DNA of 11,303 bases, from contig JAPYVP010000017.1 of assembly GCA_028276785.1 (NCBI GenBank), positions 1-11,303 of the forward strand, given 5' to 3'. The position numbers were made by a program, and so were the translations under genes. The stretch is from Candidatus Nanopusillus sp. GTDB taxonomy: Archaea; Nanobdellota; Nanobdellia; Nanobdellales; Nanobdellaceae. This document shows positions 826 through 11,303 of the stretch, one piece after another (within the stretch, counting starts at the first letter, position 1; each line of letters starts with the position of its first letter). Below the pieces are notes generated by a model. The model did not search any database, was not told where the DNA came from, and was given only the letters and a program-made list of their open reading frames with translations.

Positions 826-1212
826 ATGTATAAGGTAATATCTTTTTTGTATAGGCTAAGAGAGAAGAGGGGTTTAATTATAATTGTAGAAGGTAAGAAA
901 GATAAAGAAGTATTAAAAGAGTTTGGATTTAATAATGTATATACAATATATGAATTGAAAAAGGATGATGGAATATTTTTGAATTATAGGGAGGCAATTA
1001 TATTAACGGATAATGATAATAAGGGAAGAATGTTATATAAATATATAAGAAATCTATTAGAATCTGATGGGATAATTGTAAATGATATTGAAAGGAAAAG
1101 ATTCTTTAAATATTTTAGAGTAAGAGAAGTTGAGGATTTAAGGAAACATATTGAGAAAATAAAGTTTTACATTAATTATTTTGAGAATCCTGAGAAAATT
1201 TTGTATTCTTGA
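826..1212 (+). CDS. small stand-alone Toprim-domain protein (archaeal UPF0292 / RNase M5-like type)
   Basis: The Toprim signature is present: a conserved Glu in IIIVEGKKDKEVLKEFG and a DxD in AIILTDNDNKGR. The size of 128 aa is typical of archaeal single-domain Toprim proteins. The last 41 nt overlap the 3' end of the convergent primase gene. Confidence 0.75.
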   Translation: MYKVISFLYRLREKRGLIIIVEGKKDKEVLKEFGFNNVYTIYELKKDDGIFLNYREAIILTDNDNKGRMLYKYIRNLLESDGIIVNDIERKRFFKYFRVREVEDLRKHIEKIKFYINYFENPEKILYS

Positions 1213-2563
1213 TTTTTTTAATTGGATATGATAAAGGGTTTTTAATTAATGAACAGATATTATCTGGGGTACATACTCCGATATCTTTATAATATATTTC
1301 ATTATTGCAATTTGGAGTTAAATATTTTTTATTATTTTTATATAATTTTTTATGCCATTCTAGTTGATATTCTATATATCTATCTTTTAATGGATCTTGT
1401 AAACTTTCATTCCACTCTTTTATATATCTTTCAATTTTATCCCAATCCCACCCAATATTTGCGAAGAAATTTATTAATATAAATAAAGATCTCTTTCTAC
1501 CATCATCCATTTCTTTATTGTTTAATATATTCTTTATACATGGGGGAAATAAATCTTCATTTATTTCTATTTTTCTTTTCTTTATTTCTTCTACATCTTT
1601 CTTTGTCTCTTCAAACCCCTCCTGATTTTTGTAATTTTCTGCTAATTTGCTAAATTTTATTATTTCAAATTCATTTTTTATTTTCCATAATAATGAATCA
1701 TTGATTAATTTTTTTAATTCCTTAGATTCTCTTCTTTCTAAATCTTCGGTTAAATATGGTATGCCTTCATATGAATAATTATTTATATTAGAATCTTCGG
1801 GATTTAACTTTTCTATATAATTCTCTTTTATTGGTATGGATAAATTTCCCGTTTTTTCATTTATTGAATATAAGCATCTAATTAAGTGTCTTGATGATAT
1901 TAATATTGTATCTATTTCAATAATATCATATGGATTAAATTCTCCTATATTATTTACTCCATATTCTTTTAATTCATCTTCACTAAATTTTAATAATATT
2001 ATCTTCTTTAATTTTTCTTCTATTTCTTTTGATATATATGATGCCAAAATTCTTGCAAGATCTGGGAATAATTTCCTAGTTTCTTCTTCTACAAGATTGT
2101 CCTTCTTGTATACATTTATTGTTTCTGGAAATATTTCCCAAGGAATTGCTATATGAAAGCCTTTTCCTCCAGAATATTTTATATATATAGGATTAATATT
2201 TTTTTCTTTTAAGTAATCAAATATAATCCTTGCAGCAATTTTAGATAGATCTAGAGATTTTGCATCTATATCTATTATGAAATCCCATCCCAATCTATAT
2301 TCATTTAAATCCTTTTTTGAAACCTTCTCACTTAAAATATTTAAATCAATCCATCTTTCAATCGATATATGAAATGAAATAGCACCCTTTTTGATATAAT
2401 TTATTATATCTTCTTTTGTTTCTATTTTTGATGGCCTATGTCCAAAATTGTTATTTGATAATAAATATCCAACTTCTCTATTTTGTGAAATTTTTACCAT
2501 ATCTTCCAAAATCTCTTTGTTATTTTGATAAAATTTAATTAGATTATTTATCATTATGCTCAT
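1172..2563 (-). CDS. priS: archaeo-eukaryotic DNA primase, single chain: PriS catalytic domain fused to a PriL C-terminal Fe-S-like domain
   Basis: PriS motifs are GWDFIIDIDA (DxD, aa 92-101), YSGGKGFHI (aa 130-138) and SSRHLIRCLYSINEKTGN (aa 223-240). After a K/E-rich linker (about aa 300-335) come PriL-CTD-like motifs: FPPCIKN, GRKRSLFILINFF, TPNC, GVCTPDNIC and KNPLSY. These give four Cys (342, 419, 431, 437 by my count), consistent with a 4Fe-4S cluster. The alternative start is M4 (2554). Confidence 0.9.
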   Translation of the reverse strand: MSIMINNLIKFYQNNKEILEDMVKISQNREVGYLLSNNNFGHRPSKIETKEDIINYIKKGAISFHISIERWIDLNILSEKVSKKDLNEYRLGWDFIIDIDAKSLDLSKIAARIIFDYLKEKNINPIYIKYSGGKGFHIAIPWEIFPETINVYKKDNLVEEETRKLFPDLARILASYISKEIEEKLKKIILLKFSEDELKEYGVNNIGEFNPYDIIEIDTILISSRHLIRCLYSINEKTGNLSIPIKENYIEKLNPEDSNINNYSYEGIPYLTEDLERRESKELKKLINDSLLWKIKNEFEIIKFSKLAENYKNQEGFEETKKDVEEIKKRKIEINEDLFPPCIKNILNNKEMDDGRKRSLFILINFFANIGWDWDKIERYIKEWNESLQDPLKDRYIEYQLEWHKKLYKNNKKYLTPNCNNEIYYKDIGVCTPDNICSLIKNPLSYPIKKIKNTKFSQDSQNN

Positions 2564-6978: not shown

Positions 6979-6989
6979 TATTGCATATT

Positions 6990-7499
6990 ATGGTATCTGT
7001 AAGAGATGTGAATGGTCAAATGCTTGTAGAAAGATTAGCTAGATATCTATTTGAAAATTATAGAGATATAATAAAACCACCCAGCTGGGCATTTTTTATT
7101 AAAACAGGACCAGATAAGGAGAGAAATCCAGATTTTCCTCCAGATGTAGATTATGATGGTGGACCTGGATGGTGGTATTATAGAGCAGCATCGATTTTAA
7201 GAAAAGTATATTTATACGGACCTATTGGGGTTTCTAGATTAAGGAGAAAATATTCTGGATTAAGAAAAAGAGGAATGGAACCTGGAAAGGTTGTAAGAGG
7301 ATATGGAAAACTAATAAGGGAAATATTACATCAATTAGAAAATGCTGGATTAGTTATGAAAATAACTGAAGGAAAGAAAAAGGGAAGGGTTGTAACAAAT
7401 AATGGAAGAAGTTTATTAGATAAATTAGCCAATGAAATATATAAAGAATTAAATGACGAAAATAAGAATTTAATTAATTATATAAAATCCGTTTCATGA
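6990..7499 (+). CDS. rps19e: 30S ribosomal protein S19e (eS19)
   Basis: VRDVNGQMLVERLARYL, PPSWAFFIKTG, WWYYRAASILRKVYLYGPIGVSRLRRKYSG and LHQLENAGLV...GRVVTNNGRSLLDKLA match eS19. I prefer ATG 6990 (MVSVRDV) over the track's TTG at 6981. The protein carries a short insertion (DFPPDVDYDGGPG) before the WWY motif. Confidence 0.9.
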   Translation: MVSVRDVNGQMLVERLARYLFENYRDIIKPPSWAFFIKTGPDKERNPDFPPDVDYDGGPGWWYYRAASILRKVYLYGPIGVSRLRRKYSGLRKRGMEPGKVVRGYGKLIREILHQLENAGLVMKITEGKKKGRVVTNNGRSLLDKLANEIYKELNDENKNLINYIKSVS

Positions 7500-7966
7500 G
7501 AAGTATAAGCTTATGGGTTGAATTTTTGATATATACGGCATTTGCTATTTCTATACTTTCTTTTGTAATATACTTTGTTCATTTAACAGCTCAAAGTAAA
7601 CAGGATGAATTAAACTTAAAATATATTGTAAATTTATTGACAAATTTAAACTATCAAATAGAAACAATTGGATCTTGTTATTCATGTAATTATAAAGTTT
7701 TTGAAAATTTACCACCAAAAACAACCATATATATTTATCAGGGGAAAATAATGTGTATATATTATTCTACTGTAAATTATTCTCTACAAGTCCCTCCATA
7801 TATAAATTTAAATGTAACTAAATTATCTCCAAATAATTATAAATATAATTTTACTATTAATACAATCCCATTTAATTTATTAAATGGATCTAATCTTACA
7901 ATTACAAATAATCTATGTTTATTATTAGATAAAAATCAATCCGGTTTATATATTAGTTTATGCTAA
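7496..7966 (+). CDS. pilin-like membrane/secreted protein (156 aa), function unknown
   Basis: The start shares an ATGA with the rps19e stop. The N-terminus is MRS, then the hydrophobic ISLWVEFLIYTAFAISILSFVIYFV. The rest is N/Y/I-rich with 6 N-x-S/T sequons and 5 Cys (hand count). The N-terminus is paralogous to that of ORF 8400..8720. Confidence 0.65.
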   Translation: MRSISLWVEFLIYTAFAISILSFVIYFVHLTAQSKQDELNLKYIVNLLTNLNYQIETIGSCYSCNYKVFENLPPKTTIYIYQGKIMCIYYSTVNYSLQVPPYINLNVTKLSPNNYKYNFTINTIPFNLLNGSNLTITNNLCLLLDKNQSGLYISLC

Positions 7967-8403
7967 ATGCAAAAGAAATTAATATAATAACTATTGGAAC
8001 TACTTACATTATAACAAAAACAAATCCAATCTGGTGGATTATATAAAATAAAGTTTTCATTACAATATTTTAGTATACTTTTATTTACAATAAAGTATCC
8101 ATTAAAATAATAGCAACAATTTATATTATTTCTAGTACATTCTTGGATAGATAAATTATATGAAGATATACAAATGAAAGAAAAATTATAATTAATATAT
8201 TTTGTATAATTCTGAAAATATAATGTATAATTAGATATGTAAATATATCCAAGGTTTTTATATATGTATATTATTTGATCTTCAAAATTTTTTCCTACTA
8301 AATTTGGATTAATGTTATCTATTGGGGAAGGGTTATAATATGTAATAAAAGATAAAATAATAATAATTATAATTGTTGCTAATAATATATATTGAGATTT
8401 CAT
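7963..8403 (-). CDS. pilin-like membrane/secreted protein (146 aa), Cys-rich, function unknown
   Basis: ATGA overlap with the upstream 106-aa ORF. The N-terminus is MKSQ followed by YILLATIIIIIILSFITYY. The body has 6 sequons and 8 Cys (hand count). Its 3' end overlaps the convergent 156-aa ORF by 4 nt. Confidence 0.65.
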   Translation of the reverse strand: MKSQYILLATIIIIIILSFITYYNPSPIDNINPNLVGKNFEDQIIYIYKNLGYIYISNYTLYFQNYTKYINYNFSFICISSYNLSIQECTRNNINCCYYFNGYFIVNKSILKYCNENFILYNPPDWICFCYNVSSSNSYYINFFCI

Positions 8404-8720
8404 TTAAATATAATTAGTATATACGGATCAAAATAATCTTGGCCAGCATATAGATATTCAAATACTGGTTTATAATTTTGTATATATGTAGAATTTACTT
8501 GTTTTCCAAAATAACATACTGTGATATTATTATTTGTTAAGTTTATTATTTCATATATATATAGATTATTGTTGCATGAAGAATTTAAGTAAATTAAATT
8601 ATTGGGATCAAAAGTATAAATATTATAATTATTATATTTACTATAATAAGTATATAAAAAGAAAAATGTTAATATTGTTATTGAAAATGCTAATTCGACC
8701 AAAATTATCCAGCTCCTCAT
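8400..8720 (-). CDS. pilin-like membrane/secreted protein (106 aa), function unknown
   Basis: ATGA overlaps at both ends. The N-terminus MRSWIILVELAFSITILTFFFLY aligns with the 156-aa protein (MRS, VE[FL], AF[AS]I[ST]IL[ST]F). It has 4 sequons and 2 Cys. Confidence 0.6.
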   Translation of the reverse strand: MRSWIILVELAFSITILTFFFLYTYYSKYNNYNIYTFDPNNLIYLNSSCNNNLYIYEIINLTNNNITVCYFGKQVNSTYIQNYKPVFEYLYAGQDYFDPYILIIFK

Positions 8721-10924
8721 TTTATATATATTGTTAACTGATCTTTATATAATGTATTTACCATCGTATTATTTAATACATATATATTAAAGCTTTCAGA
8801 ATATCTGTAATTATTCGCAATATTCCCCACGTATATTGTACCGTTAAATACTGTTATATTTAAATTGTTAAAATAAAAATATACATCTTGATAATTTTTA
8901 GATATATTAATTAAATTATTTAAATTAATTATATTTATTGGTTCAATATAATTTATTTCGATATATGGAATTTGAGTAGAAAATGCTAAATATAGTGCTG
9001 TCTGTCTATCTAAATATGGATTTGAATATAGATAAAAATAGTAATTTAGATAACTATATTTATAATTTAATGTTGCATTTGTGAAATAAAGATTATTATA
9101 GTAGTCATATGATGAAGCATAAGAAATATTTATTATAGGATTATAATTTGTGTATAATATAGAATTTAAGTATCCTGAACAAAAAGATTGTATGTAGTAT
9201 CTTCTTAATATTATACCATTTTTATATTCATAATATAAATATCCATTATATAAATTGTCTAAATCAAATATTTTATTATAAATGTTCGTTGAGTTTAAAA
9301 TAAATCCATATTTGGGTTGAGAGGTATTCCAAAATATCATATCATTTGAATAATAATATTTTTGCGTATTAAATATATACCAATAAGTGTTAGAAAATAT
9401 TATATTCTTTATTGATAAATTTGTAGAATTGTATAAATATAATAGAGCTAATGAAGCATTATAAATATAGGGAGTTAAATTATAAGGCTCATATTCAGAA
9501 GTATAAAATGAAAATCCAATTATCAAATATAAAGAACATACATTTAAAAGAGTTGTTGGGATGGAATAATAGTTTCTATTATATGTATCTGTTAAATAAG
9601 AAAAATATGTTAAATTATTATTATATATTGCGAGATTATTATAAGAATCGGATAATAAAATTTTTCCCTTATTTAGATCGTTATATTGAGAAAAATCATA
9701 AGTTAAATTTGGACCTATAATAAATTTATAATTATTGGTTAAATTTGGTTGATAAATTATTTTCGTATTTGGTATTACATTATATGGAATTAAATTTATA
9801 TAATATGCATTAATATTTTGACCGGATATTTGCAATTTGGCATTATTTTTATCATTATAACAATAGTAGACATATAAAGAATTTTGATTTCCAGAAGATG
9901 GTAAATTTATATAACAATTATCTCCTAATTTTATATAAGCATTATAATAACTAGTGTTTTGAATATTAAATAATATTAAATAATTGCCTTTTGGAATGCT
10001 ATTATTATAAGTAATCTTAAAGATATTATATCGTATGCATAATCCAAAAAGATATTGAGAACAAGAATAAATATTATTTCCCGGATTCATATATGAAATA
10101 TTTATAGGAGTATCATTTGTCCAATATTGGCTAAATTGCTGATAATTTTGATAACTAAAATCATCATATACTGGAAATATTCTTTTTACATCACTTGAAT
10201 AAATGCTTATTCCATTTATTGGAGAAATATTTAATATTATATAACCATATGGGGGCATATTTAAACTAACCCAAATTCCATAGGCACCATTATTAAAGCT
10301 ATTACAATTTAAATTATCGTTTAAATAACAAAAATAATACTTATTTCCATTTAAATCTTTTACAGATAAATTGTAACCATTCTGTAGCCAATAAAATATA
10401 ACAGTAGAAGTTATGAATACAGGATAATTGATCAAATTTTGGTTTGATGGGTTTGAAACATTTATTAGAACATATTGAGGTTGACTATTATTTATATTAA
10501 AACTTGTAAAATTTGCATAGAAAAAAACCCCAACATTTGGATCTAAATATGTATTATTTGTATTATTTAATACTCCAGAATACTTTGTTAAAAAAGATAT
10601 ATTTATTGGATAATAAATTGGAAATGATGTACAAAAATCTTTGTATGCATTTTTATAAATTAAATCATCATATATTGGGGAATTTGGTAAACATTGATAA
10701 TACATAGATAAAGGTATCGAAACATTTAATGATAATAAATAATATTCACTTTCAATTGAATTTAATATATTGTTTATATAAGTATTATAATAATTTATTT
10801 GATTATAATTACTAATATTGCTTATTAAATATCCTTTATAAACTGTTAAATAAAATGTTAAAAATGAAATAAAAATTACAATGGCAATTATACCTTCTAT
10901 TTCTTTTATTATCCCTCTAACCAT
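8717..10924 (-). CDS. large pilin-like surface protein (735 aa) with a DUF2341-like region; candidate adhesin
   Basis: A 2.2-kb open frame in DNA this AT-rich cannot plausibly be chance. The N-terminus is MVRGIIKEIEG followed by IIAIVIFISFLTFYLTVY, where EG|IIAI fits the class III signal motif as I recall it. By hand count there are about 121 Asn, 112 Tyr, 29 N-x-S/T sequons and 10 Cys. Residues about 148-258 (YVLINVSNPSNQNLINYPVFIT...NLSVKDLNGNKYYFCYL...AYGIWVSLNMPPYGYIILNI...IFPVYDDFS) resemble the DUF2341 pattern. The start overlaps the ATPase gene by 16 nt. Confidence 0.85.
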   Translation of the reverse strand: MVRGIIKEIEGIIAIVIFISFLTFYLTVYKGYLISNISNYNQINYYNTYINNILNSIESEYYLLSLNVSIPLSMYYQCLPNSPIYDDLIYKNAYKDFCTSFPIYYPINISFLTKYSGVLNNTNNTYLDPNVGVFFYANFTSFNINNSQPQYVLINVSNPSNQNLINYPVFITSTVIFYWLQNGYNLSVKDLNGNKYYFCYLNDNLNCNSFNNGAYGIWVSLNMPPYGYIILNISPINGISIYSSDVKRIFPVYDDFSYQNYQQFSQYWTNDTPINISYMNPGNNIYSCSQYLFGLCIRYNIFKITYNNSIPKGNYLILFNIQNTSYYNAYIKLGDNCYINLPSSGNQNSLYVYYCYNDKNNAKLQISGQNINAYYINLIPYNVIPNTKIIYQPNLTNNYKFIIGPNLTYDFSQYNDLNKGKILLSDSYNNLAIYNNNLTYFSYLTDTYNRNYYSIPTTLLNVCSLYLIIGFSFYTSEYEPYNLTPYIYNASLALLYLYNSTNLSIKNIIFSNTYWYIFNTQKYYYSNDMIFWNTSQPKYGFILNSTNIYNKIFDLDNLYNGYLYYEYKNGIILRRYYIQSFCSGYLNSILYTNYNPIINISYASSYDYYNNLYFTNATLNYKYSYLNYYFYLYSNPYLDRQTALYLAFSTQIPYIEINYIEPINIINLNNLINISKNYQDVYFYFNNLNITVFNGTIYVGNIANNYRYSESFNIYVLNNTMVNTLYKDQLTIYIK

Positions 10925-11303
10925 AACCTCTTTCTAATTAAAGTTGGATCTGAACCTCCATGCCAAGAAACTCTAGGTTTCATTTGAACTGGATATATTC
11001 TTTCAGATTTATCATCTAAAATTAAAGCAGCACCCTTTTTCTTTGGTAAATTCTCATTCATATATATATCGATATCTTGTGCAGTAAAGTTTTTCATTAT
11101 TTCATTCAGAGATTTCAGATCTCGTTCTGCAGTTACTCTATGTGATATAACTATATCACTTTGGGTGATTACATCCGTATGCATTTTACCAGGTTGCTGA
11201 GTTGCTAATACTAATGTTATACCAGGTTGTCTTCCTTCTCTTATTATTTGTATTAATGGTTCTGTTGCTGGTGTAATTGATTCATTGGGAATTGCTTCAT
11301 GTG
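10909..11303 (-). CDS. FtsK/HerA-superfamily P-loop ATPase, C-terminal part only (N-terminus beyond the window end)
   Basis: The frame stays open upstream of the track's Met to the window edge: HEAIPNESITPATEPLIQIIREGRQPGITLVLATQQPGKMHTDVITQSDIVISHRVTAERDLKSL...PRVSWHGGSDP. The blocks EGRxxG(I/V)xLxLATQxP and (V/L)xxQxxxxIxxR are shared by the HerA (DUF87) and FtsK families. This does not look like the C-terminus of a PilB/FlaI-type ATPase. Confidence 0.8.
   Translation of the reverse strand, partial: HEAIPNESITPATEPLIQIIREGRQPGITLVLATQQPGKMHTDVITQSDIVISHRVTAERDLKSLNEIMKNFTAQDIDIYMNENLPKKKGAALILDDKSERIYPVQMKPRVSWHGGSDPTLIRKRLWLEG

What the first reader, a model, noticed from the sequence alone, without database searches (positions are those of the whole stretch)
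8717..10924. 735-aa pilin-like giant with DUF2341-like core and about 29 glycosylation sequons: possible tip adhesin
Seen in the sequence: Asn plus Tyr make up about one third of residues (about 121 N and 112 Y by hand count). There are very few K/E/R/D, 10 Cys, and about 29 N-x-S/T sequons spread along the whole chain. The N-terminus MVRGIIKEIEG|IIAIVIFISFLTFYL places a charged residue and Gly before a hydrophobic helix.

From memory of family patterns: residues about 148-258 (10151-10483) follow the DUF2341 logic (…INYPVFIT… / …LSVKDLNGNKYYFCYL… / …GIWVSLNMPPYGYIILNI… / …IFPVYDDF). In other proteins this is usually followed by a LamG-like beta-sandwich, and the next ~100 aa here are beta-strand-like.

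Inference: this is a heavily glycosylated extracellular protein anchored or polymerised through a pilin-like N-terminus. It is analogous in logic to large minor pilins or tip adhesins.
Basis: partly seen in the sequence, partly recalled or inferred. Interest (0 to 1): 0.65.

Follow-up and report, generated by a model that had tools for sequence, protein, structure and literature searches.

The report
Nanoarchaeal pilin-like DUF2341 surface adhesin
This gene encodes a large, probably sugar-coated surface protein of a tiny parasitic hot-spring archaeon (Nanopusillus). It has a pilin-like anchor and a domain typical of pilus-tip adhesins, so it is a good but unproven candidate for how the parasite grips its host.

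Summary
ORF 8717-10924(-) encodes 735 aa with 121 Asn, 112 Tyr, 10 Cys and 29 N-x-S/T sequons. Shuffling gives 15.9±3.5 sequons (p≈4e-4), and 14 sequons are kept in all 18 aligned homologs.

The window comes from Candidatus Nanopusillus, and the family is confined to Nanopusillaceae.

Pfam and NCBIfam give no direct hit.
- A family profile finds bona fide DUF2341 proteins (HMMER E to 6.6e-9).
- Profile-profile comparison gives 98.9% probability (E 1.2e-17) for residues 152-263.
- The AlphaFold model's best structural matches are DUF2341 proteins of Sulfolobales viruses (E about 2e-8).

The N-terminus is a 56-residue helix with a conserved class-III-signal-like "EG|[IV]IAIVIF". This is compatible with a pilin but not proven to be one.

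The gene sits in a conserved cassette: HerA/DUF87 ATPase, then this gene, then a 106-aa and a 146-aa protein, with a convergent 156-aa protein. In a related lineage the cassette abuts type IV filament core genes (two T2SSF and one T2SSE).

Best reading: a divergent archaeal MJ1470/DUF2341-type pilus-associated adhesin. The kind was already hypothesised in 2016, so I rate it a new variant of a known kind, of moderate interest.

The parts
8717..10924 (-). 735-aa gene (p735): a helix-anchored surface protein, probably N-glycosylated. Stop codon at 8717-8719.
   Evidence: ORF. Composition and sequons. 53 homologs, all in Nanopusillaceae. dN/dS 0.23-0.26.
10847..10924 (-). aa 1-26: a short charged leader, MVRGIIKEIEG, followed by the hydrophobic segment IIAIVIFISFLTFYL. 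A candidate class III (prepilin-type) cleavage site lies after G11.
   Evidence: This segment is nearly invariant even in homologs only 50% identical. The FlaFind-type pattern hits at residue 10 in 28 of 35 family members. Cleavage itself was not tested.
10472..10846 (-). aa 27-151: the rest of the long N-terminal helix (to about residue 57), then a small alpha/beta region with the Cys78 and Cys98 pair (invariant in the 18-sequence alignment) and four invariant sequons (N67, N108, N120, N123).
   Evidence: AF2 predicts helix 2-57 and strands from residue 58, with pLDDT about 80-92 in the full-length model. The same region is poorly modelled when folded alone. Conservation.
10136..10471 (-). 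aa 152-263: DUF2341 (MJ1470-type) domain of the archaeal 'FCY...C' subtype, with invariant C199 and C207.
   Evidence: HMMER profile hits to Pfam DUF2341 proteins. hhalign 98.9%, E 1.2e-17. hhalign 92-94% against single sequences. Foldseek hits to viral DUF2341 proteins.
9695..10135 (-). aa 264-410: a beta-sandwich domain following DUF2341. It is jelly-roll or CBM-like, and possibly LamG-like.
   Evidence: The AF2 model is all-beta here with pLDDT about 78-90. PDB matches are CBM6-type modules with TM 0.52-0.55 on the target. Viral DUF2341 matches span 350-456 alignment columns. The tool does not report which residues align.
9500..9694 (-). aa 411-475: a hypervariable, indel-rich segment.
   Evidence: Lowest conservation, and insertions of up to 16 columns in the alignment. 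dN/dS 0.43-0.57, against 0.12-0.3 in most other segments. AF2 pLDDT below 50.
8720..9499 (-). aa 476-735: conserved C-terminal region of unknown family. aa 476-625 are poorly modelled. aa 626-735 form a confident alpha/beta domain.
   Evidence: pLDDT 84-94 for residues 630-735. Conservation 0.85-0.93. There is one weak sequence match, to the EXT1 GT64 domain at residues 490-606.
10909..11303 (-). C-terminal 131 codons of a DUF87/HerA-family P-loop ATPase, about 432 aa in full. Its last 16 nt overlap the start of p735.
   Evidence: The full-length orthologue in L001 matches Pfam DUF87 (4.9e-11) and HerA_C, and PDB HerA 8xau at 4e-10. The ATPase-p735 adjacency is kept in all Nanopusillaceae contexts seen, including those with different upstream genes.
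8400..8720 (-). 106-aa protein (p106): N-terminal hydrophobic helix MRSWIILVELAFS... followed by an N/Y-rich ectodomain. Its start overlaps the p735 stop by 4 nt.
   Evidence: Composition. Conserved at 106-109 aa in all 18 loci found, counting duplicates. Glu9 in the helix is conserved.
7963..8403 (-). 146-aa protein (p146): N-terminal helix MKSQYILLATI... followed by an ectodomain with 8 Cys. It overlaps the p106 stop by 4 nt.
   Evidence: hhalign gives 86% (E 5e-6) to the 130-aa protein at the same operon position in L013.
7496..7966 (+). 156-aa protein (p156): N-terminal helix MRSISLWVEFLIYT... followed by an N/Y-rich ectodomain. It is convergent with p146 and its start overlaps the end of the S19e gene by 4 nt.
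   Evidence: Membership of the system rests only on shared composition, topology and conserved position.

Best explanation
p735 is a Nanopusillaceae-specific cell-surface adhesin of the archaeal MJ1470/DUF2341 class. It is made as a membrane protein held by one N-terminal hydrophobic helix.

Inferred steps:
- A class III (prepilin-type) peptidase may remove the 11-residue leader at EG|IIAIV.
- The roughly 700-residue ectodomain faces the acidic, hot outside and is N-glycosylated at many of its about 29 sequons.
- Through its pilin-like helix it is mounted on a type IV filament, or on a short pseudopilus-like stalk. The three small helix-anchored proteins p106, p146 and p156 would act like the minor-pilin set that carries a tip adhesin.
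- The DUF2341 plus beta-sandwich module binds a ligand on the host archaeon's surface, probably a glycan. The hypervariable 411-475 segment may tune specificity.

Shown here: the gene is real and conserved; the composition and sequon excess; DUF2341 homology by sequence profile and by structure; the long N-terminal helix and its motif; the conserved cassette; and the adjacency to type IV filament genes in a related lineage.

Not shown: glycosylation, cleavage, incorporation into a filament, and host binding. The role of the upstream HerA-type ATPase is left open.
For: Surface location and glycosylation.
- Composition and sequon excess, with sequons conserved across homologs.
- No sequon lies before residue 36, which fits an N-in, C-out topology.
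- Nanopusillus acidilobi grows at pH 3.6 and 82 C and has a GlcNAc-bearing surface (PMC4935971).

DUF2341 homology.
- HMMER profile hits to Pfam DUF2341 proteins.
- hhalign 98.9%, E 1.2e-17.
- Foldseek matches to viral DUF2341 proteins at E about 2e-8 over 350-456 columns.
- CBM-like jelly-roll matches in the PDB.

Pilin-like N-terminus.
- Helix 2-57 in the AF2 model.
- An invariant hydrophobic segment.
- The FlaFind-type motif in 28 of 35 members.
- P0064, a DUF2341 relative outside the family, has a canonical 'KG|QFFIIAAALVM' class III signal.

Genomic context.
- In L013/L014 the cassette (ATPase, 541-aa homolog, 92-aa, 130-aa) lies directly beside two T2SSF platform genes and one T2SSE ATPase gene.
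- In L004 and L008 it lies beside archaellin-type (PF01917) genes and a second DUF2341 gene.
- YN1 and a Nanopusillaceae MAG encode T2SSE proteins 55-56% identical to the L013 one.

Literature.
- Large DUF2341 proteins in Methanococcus Epd pilus loci were proposed as PilY1-like tip adhesins, and nanoarchaeal pilins were reported as unidentified (PMC4858521).
- Transposon insertions in a DUF2341 gene of the epd locus were recovered in a screen for transformation-defective M. maripaludis mutants (PMC10133366).

Evolution. The gene evolves faster than its housekeeping neighbours but under purifying selection. This matches the 'hypothetical external' class of nanoarchaeal proteins described in PMC6142677.
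Against: - No Pfam or NCBIfam pilin or class III signal model hits p735 or the small proteins, even at E up to 10.
- The N-terminal 148 residues folded alone give a poor model and no structural match to pilins.
- The small proteins lack the FlaFind-type motif. Their residue before the helix varies (G, S, N, D, T).
- The small proteins show no profile similarity to archaellin-type proteins or to each other.
- The EG motif is absent from the L013/L008 lineage (MRSIALSWVIG...), which is the lineage where filament genes are adjacent.
- In Nanopusillus itself no filament-assembly gene is within 10 kb.
- A prepilin peptidase was reported missing from two nanoarchaeal genomes (PMC4858521).
- The co-operonic ATPase is of the HerA type, not the T2SSE type.
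- Ligand binding is wholly inferred.
Confidence: 0.5

Rival explanations
1. p735 is a plain membrane-anchored surface lectin or glycoprotein. The N-terminal helix is an uncleaved signal anchor, making it a type II membrane protein. It stands in the pseudo-periplasm or S-layer zone, perhaps in complex with p106, p146 and p156. It is never part of a type IV filament. The DUF2341 plus sandwich module still binds a glycan, of host or of self.
For: - There is no sequence or structural match to pilins.
- The small proteins lack a class III motif.
- A prepilin peptidase was reported absent in two nanoarchaea (PMC4858521).
- No filament genes lie nearby in Nanopusillus, YN1, Nanobdella or Nanoclepta.
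- The N-terminal region models well only in the context of the whole protein.
Against: - The hydrophobic helix is far more conserved than a mere anchor needs: it is invariant at 50% overall identity.
- Conserved Glu residues sit at the start of the helices of p735, p106 and p156.
- Filament core genes are adjacent in L013.
- The DUF2341 class is associated with type IV pili (PMC4858521, PMC10133366).
Confidence: 0.3
2. The cassette is a distinct apparatus powered by a HerA-type ATPase rather than an accessory of type IV pili. The hexameric DUF87 ATPase would drive assembly or translocation of p735 and the small proteins, for example as part of the attachment organelle (cone, portal, sheathed filament) seen in Nanobdellota.
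For: - The ATPase gene always immediately precedes and overlaps the p735-family gene. This holds across lineages with different upstream neighbours and down to about 25-35% identity of the large protein.
- The ATPase is under very strong constraint, with dN/dS 0.03-0.05.
- The components of the attachment organelle are unknown (PMC11420986, PMC11104419).
- HerA/FtsK/VirB4-class ATPases are pumping motors (established knowledge; Iyer et al. 2004, cited in PMC4858521).
Against: - ATPase homologs of the same length at 45-50% identity are widespread in other DPANN. In the three contexts examined they stand alone, without any large membrane protein beside them.
- Gene overlaps are the norm in this compact genome, even between unrelated genes. 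For example, S19e overlaps p156.
- The ATPase has no membrane segment, and no polytopic membrane partner is in the cassette.
- There is no experimental link.
Confidence: 0.12
3. p735 is the S-layer protein, or an S-layer anchor, of Nanopusillus.
For: It is large, N/Y-rich, poor in charged residues and dense in sequons, like S-layer proteins of acidophilic archaea. The N. acidilobi S-layer protein also has few tryptic sites (PMC4935971).
Against: - The putative S-layer genes named for the cultivated relatives are different genes: MJ1_0160 and MJ1_0707 in Nanobdella, and YN1_5000 and YN1_2560 in YN1 (PMC11420986; bioRxiv 10.1101/2023.10.27.564410). The YN1 orthologue of p735 is YN1_1890.
- Those candidates are built of Ig-like folds, with no terminal TM helix reported for MJ1_0160 and a C-terminal one for MJ1_0707. 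They do not have an N-terminal 56-residue helix followed by DUF2341.
Confidence: 0.04

Closest known systems
Large DUF2341 (MJ1470-type, arCOG03508-like) proteins of archaeal type IV pilus loci, e.g. the DUF2341 protein MMJJ_08210 in the Methanococcus maripaludis epd locus
   Same: Both have a DUF2341 domain followed by a beta-sandwich, are large, and have an N-terminal hydrophobic helix of the class III type. Both are encoded with several small pilin-like proteins and, in L013, next to T2SSF and T2SSE genes. Both are proposed as adhesins.
   Different: - The sequence is so divergent that Pfam's DUF2341 model misses 34 of the 35 family members.
- About 330 C-terminal residues belong to no known family.
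- The composition is extremely rich in Asn and Tyr.
- The gene is always coupled to a HerA/DUF87 ATPase gene.
- In most Nanopusillaceae it is not in a pilus locus.
- No dedicated peptidase is in the cassette.
Bacterial PilY1 with the minor pilins FimU-PilVWX (and the GspH-I-J-K tip complexes of type II secretion)
   Same: The logic is the same: one large non-pilin-sized adhesin together with a set of about three or four small helix-anchored partners that would prime and cap a filament.
   Different: No homology to the PilY1 beta-propeller or vWA domains was found. PilY1 has a Sec signal, whereas p735 carries its own pilin-like helix. The comparison is an analogy only.
DUF2341-containing structural proteins of Sulfolobales viruses (Sulfolobales Beppu rod-shaped virus 1, Sulfolobus ellipsoid virus 1, Sulfolobus polyhedral virus 2)
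   Same: These are the best structural matches of the AF2 model (E 2e-8 to 2e-5, 350-456 aligned columns). Their owners also have to attach to Sulfolobales-type cell surfaces.
   Different: Sequence identity is only 11-13%. They are viral virion proteins without the long N-terminal pilin-like helix context. Their own functions are untested.
Sulfolobus bindosome-type binding proteins with class III signal peptides
   Same: In both, a large ligand-binding ectodomain is attached to a pilin-like N-terminal helix and is thought to be mounted on a type IV filament base.
   Different: Bindosome proteins are ABC-transporter solute-binding proteins, whereas p735 has a DUF2341 plus jelly-roll architecture. 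No transporter genes are nearby.

Membership tests
DUF2341 (Pfam PF10102; MJ1470 domain) | A significant match to the family's sequence profile | tested here: met
   The direct Pfam scan of p735 found nothing, and only 1 of 35 family members passes (P0055, 24.5 bits against a cut-off of 23.4). However, the family profile hits three Pfam-verified DUF2341 proteins only at positions 121-281 (E 6.6e-9, 7.8e-5 and 1.3e-4). hhalign against an alignment of DUF2341 segments gives 98.9% and E 1.2e-17 for residues 152-263. The test is met by transitive and profile-profile evidence, not by the curated threshold.
DUF2341 (Pfam PF10102; MJ1470 domain) | The same fold as other DUF2341 proteins | tested here: met
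   Foldseek of the AF2 model (pLDDT 84-93 in this region) against BFVD: the second and third hits are annotated DUF2341 proteins (E 2.6e-8 and 1.8e-5, probability 1.00). The comparison is between predicted structures.
LamG / concanavalin-A-like domain following DUF2341 | A profile or structural match specifically to LamG or ConA-like lectins | tested here: inconclusive
   A beta-sandwich is predicted at residues 264-405. PDB matches are CBM6-type jelly rolls with TM 0.52-0.55. There is no Laminin_G Pfam hit in p735. Its relative P0064 has a weak Laminin_G_3 hit (0.0086). The aligned residue ranges are not reported.
Archaeal type IV pilin-like proteins (class III signal peptide proteins) | An N-terminal motif with a charged residue, then G/A, then a hydrophobic stretch of about 20 residues (FlaFind-type pattern, recalled from memory) | tested here: met
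   'EG[IVL]IAI' at residue 10, followed by VIFISFLTFYL, is found in 28 of 35 family members. It is absent in the P0057/P0068 and P0062/P0065 lineages, and in one N-terminally truncated entry (P0041) and one fragment (P0060).
Archaeal type IV pilin-like proteins (class III signal peptide proteins) | Cleavage by an A24-family prepilin peptidase (PibD/FlaK/EppA) encoded in the genome | not testable with these tools
   Whole genomes could not be scanned. None of the loci with precomputed Pfam gene calls lists Peptidase_A24. The literature reports the peptidase missing from two nanoarchaeal genomes (PMC4858521).
Archaeal type IV pilin-like proteins (class III signal peptide proteins) | The pilin fold: an N-terminal helix of about 50 residues packed on a beta-sheet head, similar to solved pilins or archaellins | tested here: inconclusive
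   Helix 2-57 followed by strands is seen in the full-length model. The isolated domain has pLDDT 68 and pTM 0.38 and gives no Foldseek hit. No pilin appears among the 50 listed PDB matches of the full model.
Archaeal type IV pilin-like proteins (class III signal peptide proteins) | Encoded with type IV filament core genes (T2SSE ATPase, T2SSF platform) | tested here: met
   This is met only in the related lineage L013/L014, where two T2SSF genes and one T2SSE gene directly flank the cassette. It is not met in the window's own genus.
PilY1 family (bacterial pilus tip adhesin) | A C-terminal PilY1/PilC beta-propeller, or an N-terminal vWA domain | tested here: not met
   No such Pfam hit, and no propeller in the AF2 secondary structure or the Foldseek lists. 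The resemblance is functional analogy only.
HerA/FtsK-superfamily ATPase (upstream gene) | DUF87 P-loop core and HerA C-terminal region | tested here: met
   Pfam DUF87 4.9e-11 and HerA_C 6.3e-5. PDB HerA 8xau 4e-10. All NCBIfam equivalog scores are far below their cut-offs, so it is a family member of unassigned subtype. The P-loop starts about residue 54, so there is no room for a full HAS barrel (by inspection).

The most novel reading that the evidence does not exclude
The conserved five-gene unit (HerA-type ATPase, p735, p106, p146, p156) may encode parts of the so far molecularly undefined attachment organelle of Nanobdellota (the cone, portal and sheathed filament that pierces the host). 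The HerA-like hexamer would be its motor. p735 would be the host-binding tip, and it uses the same DUF2341 plus jelly-roll module that Sulfolobales viruses carry in their virions. That would be a HerA-powered cell-to-cell apparatus distinct from canonical type IV filaments, with an attachment module shared between viruses and cellular parasites of the same hosts.
Probability: 0.1. Interest if true: 0.85.

Novelty: new variant of a known kind. Interest (0 to 1): 0.5.

Why it matters
Nanopusillaceae are obligate ectosymbionts or parasites of Sulfolobales- and Acidilobales-type archaea. How they recognise and hold their hosts is unknown. [quoted passage not shown] The parts of their recently imaged attachment organelle are unnamed.

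This analysis puts a name and a domain map on a conserved, fast-evolving surface protein and its three small partners. It ties them to type IV filament genes in a sister lineage. It also shows that the protein shares its putative binding module with virion proteins of viruses infecting the same kind of hosts.

That gives experimentalists working with the cultivated systems (N. acidilobi 7A, Nanobdella aerobiophila MJ1, YN1) specific targets: YN1_1890, the Nanobdella gene at L005 7284-9362, and the N. acidilobi gene at L017 10001-12238. These could be used for antibodies, cryo-ET labelling and glycan-binding tests.

It also shows that Pfam's DUF2341 model misses this whole branch.

Tried and rejected
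- Direct Pfam and NCBIfam scans of p735 and the three small proteins at E up to 10 gave nothing meaningful. Scanning all 35 family members gave one DUF2341 pass only.
- Sequence searches of the PDB with the family profiles found no pilin, lectin or adhesin. The only hit was a weak EXT1 GT64 match.
- Foldseek of the full model against the PDB gave only generic CBM jelly rolls and low-TM multi-domain noise.
- The N-terminal 148 residues folded alone gave a poor model and no Foldseek hit.
- hhalign of p106, p146 and p156 against each other, against the N-terminus of p735 and against three PF01917 archaellin-type proteins showed no relationship. The exception was p146 against the L013 130-aa protein.
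- The S-layer idea was rejected because the published S-layer candidates in relatives are other genes (PMC11420986; 10.1101/2023.10.27.564410).
- 'RG|II' at residues 3-4 was rejected as the cleavage site. G4 is I, N or S in divergent homologs, and K-E-x-E would then sit in the mature hydrophobic N-terminus.
- Treating the gene overlap with the ATPase as proof of functional coupling was rejected. 4-nt overlaps also join unrelated genes here (S19e and p156). ATPase homologs of the same length stand alone in the three other DPANN contexts examined.
- No tRNA or Rfam family was found in the window.


Full report
**1. What is in the sequence**

The window has about 23% G+C. It carries archaeal housekeeping genes: a fused primase, RNA polymerase subunit E', Spt4, GluRS, prefoldin, SepF, ZPR1, L37ae and S19e.

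The ORF at 8717..10924(-) encodes 735 aa. Only 9.1% of residues are K, R, D or E.

Shuffling the protein's own residues gives 15.9 ± 3.5 sequons, and 0.04% of 5000 shuffles reach 29. The sequon excess is therefore not a by-product of the Asn/Ser/Thr content.

The three neighbouring small proteins share this composition and sequon density (3.8-4.1 per 100 aa). They are p106 (8400-8720, minus strand), p146 (7963-8403, minus strand) and p156 (7496-7966, plus strand). The 13 cytoplasmic proteins of the window have 24-41% charged residues and 0-1.5 sequons per 100 aa.

The first sequon is at residue 36, after the hydrophobic segment.

**2. Whose gene it is, and that it is real**

The protein has 53 database homologs at 50-94% identity. 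All are unnamed or 'hypothetical', and every named source is Candidatus Nanopusillus, Nanobsidianus stetteri, Nanopusillaceae or the cultivated strain YN1.

A scan of one genome per GTDB species found 15 loci. All are in Nanopusillaceae: Nanopusillus including N. acidilobi 7A, Nst1, YN1, Nanobdella aerobiophila MJ1 and Nanoclepta minutus.

Against close relatives, dN/dS is 0.23-0.26. The housekeeping neighbours score 0.03-0.17 and the upstream ATPase 0.03-0.05. So this is a real gene under purifying selection that evolves several-fold faster at the protein level.

Residues 411-475 are hypervariable, with dN/dS 0.43-0.57 and most of the indels.

Fourteen sequons are at the same column in all 18 aligned homologs.

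This fits the 'hypothetical external' class of nanoarchaeal proteins (single N-terminal TM helix), which had elevated non-synonymous SNP density (PMC6142677). It also fits N. acidilobi, which lives at pH 3.6 and 82 C and has a lectin-detectable GlcNAc surface (PMC4935971).

**3. DUF2341**

hmmscan of p735 against Pfam and NCBIfam returns nothing, even at E = 10.

However, an HMM built from 18 family members and run against 1.8 billion representative proteins found more distant full-length relatives (P0055, P0056, P0057, P0062). It also found three proteins that match only profile positions 121-281: P0064, P0066 and P0067, with E 6.6e-9, 7.8e-5 and 1.3e-4.

Those three are independently Pfam DUF2341 proteins at just those places (E 1.3e-17, 4.3e-7 and 6.6e-13). 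The 34%-identical orthologue P0055 itself passes Pfam's DUF2341 gathering score.

hhalign gives:
- 92-94% probability for the family profile against single DUF2341 proteins;
- 98.9% probability, E 1.2e-17, for the broader profile against a six-segment DUF2341 alignment, covering p735 residues 152-263.

Independently, the AlphaFold2 model has mean pLDDT 72.6 and pTM 0.72, with pLDDT 84-93 in this region. Its best matches in the viral structure library are:
- the Sulfolobus ellipsoid virus 1 'signal peptide protein' (2.1e-8);
- a DUF2341 protein of Sulfolobales Beppu rod-shaped virus 1 (2.6e-8, 456 columns);
- a DUF2341 protein of Cafeteria roenbergensis virus (1.8e-5);
- a structural protein of Sulfolobus polyhedral virus 2 (2.4e-5).

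The family is simply too divergent for the curated model: only 1 of 35 members passes.

**4. The rest of the architecture**

The model shows:
- a continuous helix over residues 2-57;
- a small alpha/beta region up to about residue 150, with Cys78 and Cys98 (invariant in the 18-sequence alignment);
- the DUF2341 domain;
- an all-beta region at 264-405 with pLDDT about 78-90;
- a poorly predicted stretch at 415-570;
- a confident alpha/beta C-terminal domain at 630-735.

Against the PDB, the only consistent matches are CBM6-type jelly-roll modules (TM 0.52-0.55 on the target). I could not show that it is LamG specifically. The relative P0064 has a weak Laminin_G_3 hit after its DUF2341 repeats.

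The C-terminal 260 residues match no family. The one exception is a borderline sequence match to the GT64 domain of human EXT1 at residues 490-606 (E 5.7e-4). In that alignment an N-S-T sequon replaces the stretch 'D-E-D' of EXT1, which is probably its DXD motif. I treat this as unexplained.

**5. The N-terminus**

'KEIEG' followed by [IV]IAIVIFISFLTFYL is nearly invariant down to 50% overall identity. The 'RG' at residues 3-4 is not conserved (RI, RN and KS in divergent homologs).

The FlaFind-type class III pattern, recalled from memory, is [KRDE][GA][ALIFQMVED][ILMVTAS]x3. It matches 'EG[IVL]IAI' at residue 10 in 28 of 35 members.

The motif is missing in two divergent lineages (P0057/P0068 and P0062/P0065), which start MVKGILKKIEGT... 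or MKGTSLSWVIG... It is also missing in one N-terminally truncated entry (P0041) and one fragment (P0060).

The three small proteins have ultra-short leaders (M-[KR]-x) directly followed by the helix, and they do not fit the pattern. p106 and p156 have a conserved Glu at position 9 inside the helix, and p735 has Glu at 8 and 10. This is reminiscent of the conserved Glu5 of bacterial pilins (established knowledge). It is suggestive only.

Folding residues 1-148 alone gave a weak model and no structural neighbour. No pilin model in Pfam or NCBIfam hits. Pilin-likeness is thus supported by the motif, the helix length and the extreme conservation of the helix. It is not demonstrated.

**6. Genomic context**

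In a 57-kb Nanopusillus contig the order is: DUF87/HerA-family ATPase (432 aa), then the large protein, then the 106-aa and 146-aa proteins. The 156-aa gene is convergent and overlaps the S19e gene.

The same unit, with almost fixed lengths of the small proteins (106-109, 146-148 and 156-157 aa), is present in YN1, Nanobdella, Nanoclepta-like contigs and a divergent Nanopusillaceae MAG.

In a further lineage (GCA_054017035.1; the large protein is about 35% identical over its N-terminal third), the order is: M48 peptidase, DUF87 ATPase, a 541-aa homolog, a 92-aa protein and a 130-aa protein. This block is immediately followed by two convergent T2SSF platform genes and a T2SSE secretion ATPase gene, i.e. 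the core of a type IV filament machine. The 130-aa protein is related to p146 (hhalign 86%).

Two other contexts place the pair next to archaellin-type (PF01917) genes and a second, conventional DUF2341 gene.

YN1 and another Nanopusillaceae MAG encode T2SSE proteins 55-56% identical to the L013 one. According to the literature, terrestrial Nanoarchaeota have two type IV pilus systems besides the archaellum (PMC6142677).

**7. The ATPase**

The ATPase belongs to the HerA/FtsK superfamily (Pfam DUF87 and HerA_C; PDB HerA 4e-10). There is no room for a full HAS barrel.

Its adjacency to the p735 family holds wherever that family occurs, including where the upstream gene differs. However, homologs of the same length at 45-50% identity are very common in other DPANN. 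In the three contexts examined they have no large membrane protein beside them.

Overlapping genes are routine in this genome. I therefore leave its involvement open and treat it as a separate, lower-probability hypothesis.

**8. Comparison with what is known**

Makarova, Koonin and Albers (PMC4858521) found large DUF2341 proteins in Methanococcus-type pilus loci. They proposed that these act like the PilY1 tip adhesin. [quoted passage not shown]

Transposon insertions in a DUF2341 gene of the M. maripaludis epd locus were recovered in a screen for transformation-defective mutants (PMC10133366). [quoted passage not shown] A 2026 preprint again lists PilY-like adhesins in archaeal filament subsystems, including one found in some Nanoarchaeota (10.64898/2026.04.22.720090).

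The kind of thing is therefore already known as a hypothesis. New here are:
- a Pfam-invisible nanoarchaeal branch;
- its fixed partnership with three small helix-anchored proteins and a HerA-type ATPase;
- a 330-residue C-terminal extension of unknown family;
- structural kinship with virion proteins of Sulfolobales viruses.

p735 is not one of the putative S-layer proteins of these organisms. Those are other genes (PMC11420986; 10.1101/2023.10.27.564410). The text of the published surface-protein survey of Nanobdella does not mention the p735 orthologue.

**9. Verdict**

The pilin processing and the tip location remain inference.

My best explanation, at confidence about 0.5, is a glycosylated, pilin-helix-anchored DUF2341 adhesin that works with a small minor-pilin-like set on a type IV filament base to bind the host surface.

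The main rival, at about 0.3, is the same binding protein acting as a plain membrane-anchored surface lectin.

A HerA-powered novel apparatus, possibly the attachment organelle imaged in YN1 and Nanobdella (PMC11420986, PMC11104419), is not excluded (about 0.1). It would be the exciting outcome.

Noticed in passing
window 10909-11303 (-); full length in L001 8718-10016: A DUF87/HerA-family ATPase of about 432 aa, with no room for a HAS barrel, is extremely conserved (dN/dS 0.03-0.05; 88% identical in YN1, where p735 is only 50%). Homologs of the same length at 45-50% identity occur in a great many DPANN genomes. Its function is unknown. It precedes the p735 family everywhere that family exists, but stands alone in the three Woesearchaeota-like contexts examined.
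   Followed up: partly
window 9107-9457 (-), p735 residues 490-606: The family profile gives a borderline match (E 5.7e-4, 21 bits) to the GT64 glycosyltransferase domain of human exostosin-1 (PDB 7sch). In the alignment an N-S-T sequon replaces the stretch 'D-E-D' of EXT1, which is probably its DXD motif. AlphaFold models this stretch poorly. It could be chance or a degenerate GT-A remnant.
   Followed up: partly
p735 model (window 8717-10924) against the BFVD library: The best structural neighbours are virion or 'signal peptide' proteins of viruses infecting Sulfolobales (SEV1, SBRV1, SPV2), two of them annotated DUF2341. A parasite and the viruses of similar hosts may use the same attachment module.
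   Followed up: no
window 6981-7966 (+): The 156-aa surface-type protein gene starts 4 nt inside the end of the ribosomal protein S19e gene on the same strand. It is probably co-transcribed with a ribosomal protein gene. It also converges on p146 with a 4-nt overlap of their stop codons.
   Followed up: no
L013 10285-14220 and L014 11576-14605: In a related nanoarchaeal MAG (GCA_054017035.1), two T2SSF genes (284 and 496 aa) and a T2SSE gene (509 aa) lie between the cassette and the S19e gene. This is the position that p156 occupies in Nanopusillus. The synteny suggests that the filament genes were moved or lost from this locus in the Nanopusillus lineage.
   Followed up: partly
L004 4009-5852 (-) and L008 10311-11764 (+): A pair or trio of archaellin-type (PF01917) small proteins lies near the ATPase-p735 pair in two divergent lineages. 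With them is a 462-aa protein that fuses an ArlF/G-like N-terminal part to a conventional DUF2341 domain.
   Followed up: partly
window 8400-8720 (-) and 7496-7966 (+); N-termini: p106 and p156 both carry an invariant Glu at residue 9 inside the N-terminal hydrophobic helix (MRSWIILVE..., MRSISLWVE...), while p146 has none. The residue before the helix varies (G, S, N, D, T), which is unusual for prepilin peptidase substrates.
   Followed up: partly
window 1172-2563 (-): A single 463-aa protein carries weak matches to both the small and the large primase subunit families, i.e. a fused PriS-PriL primase. I recall this being known for Nanoarchaeota. It overlaps a 128-aa Toprim protein gene on the other strand by about 40 nt.
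   Followed up: no
L013 5881-6741 and L008 5864-6724: In the lineages where p735 lacks the EG motif, an M48/M56-family membrane metalloprotease gene directly precedes and abuts the DUF87 ATPase gene.
   Followed up: no
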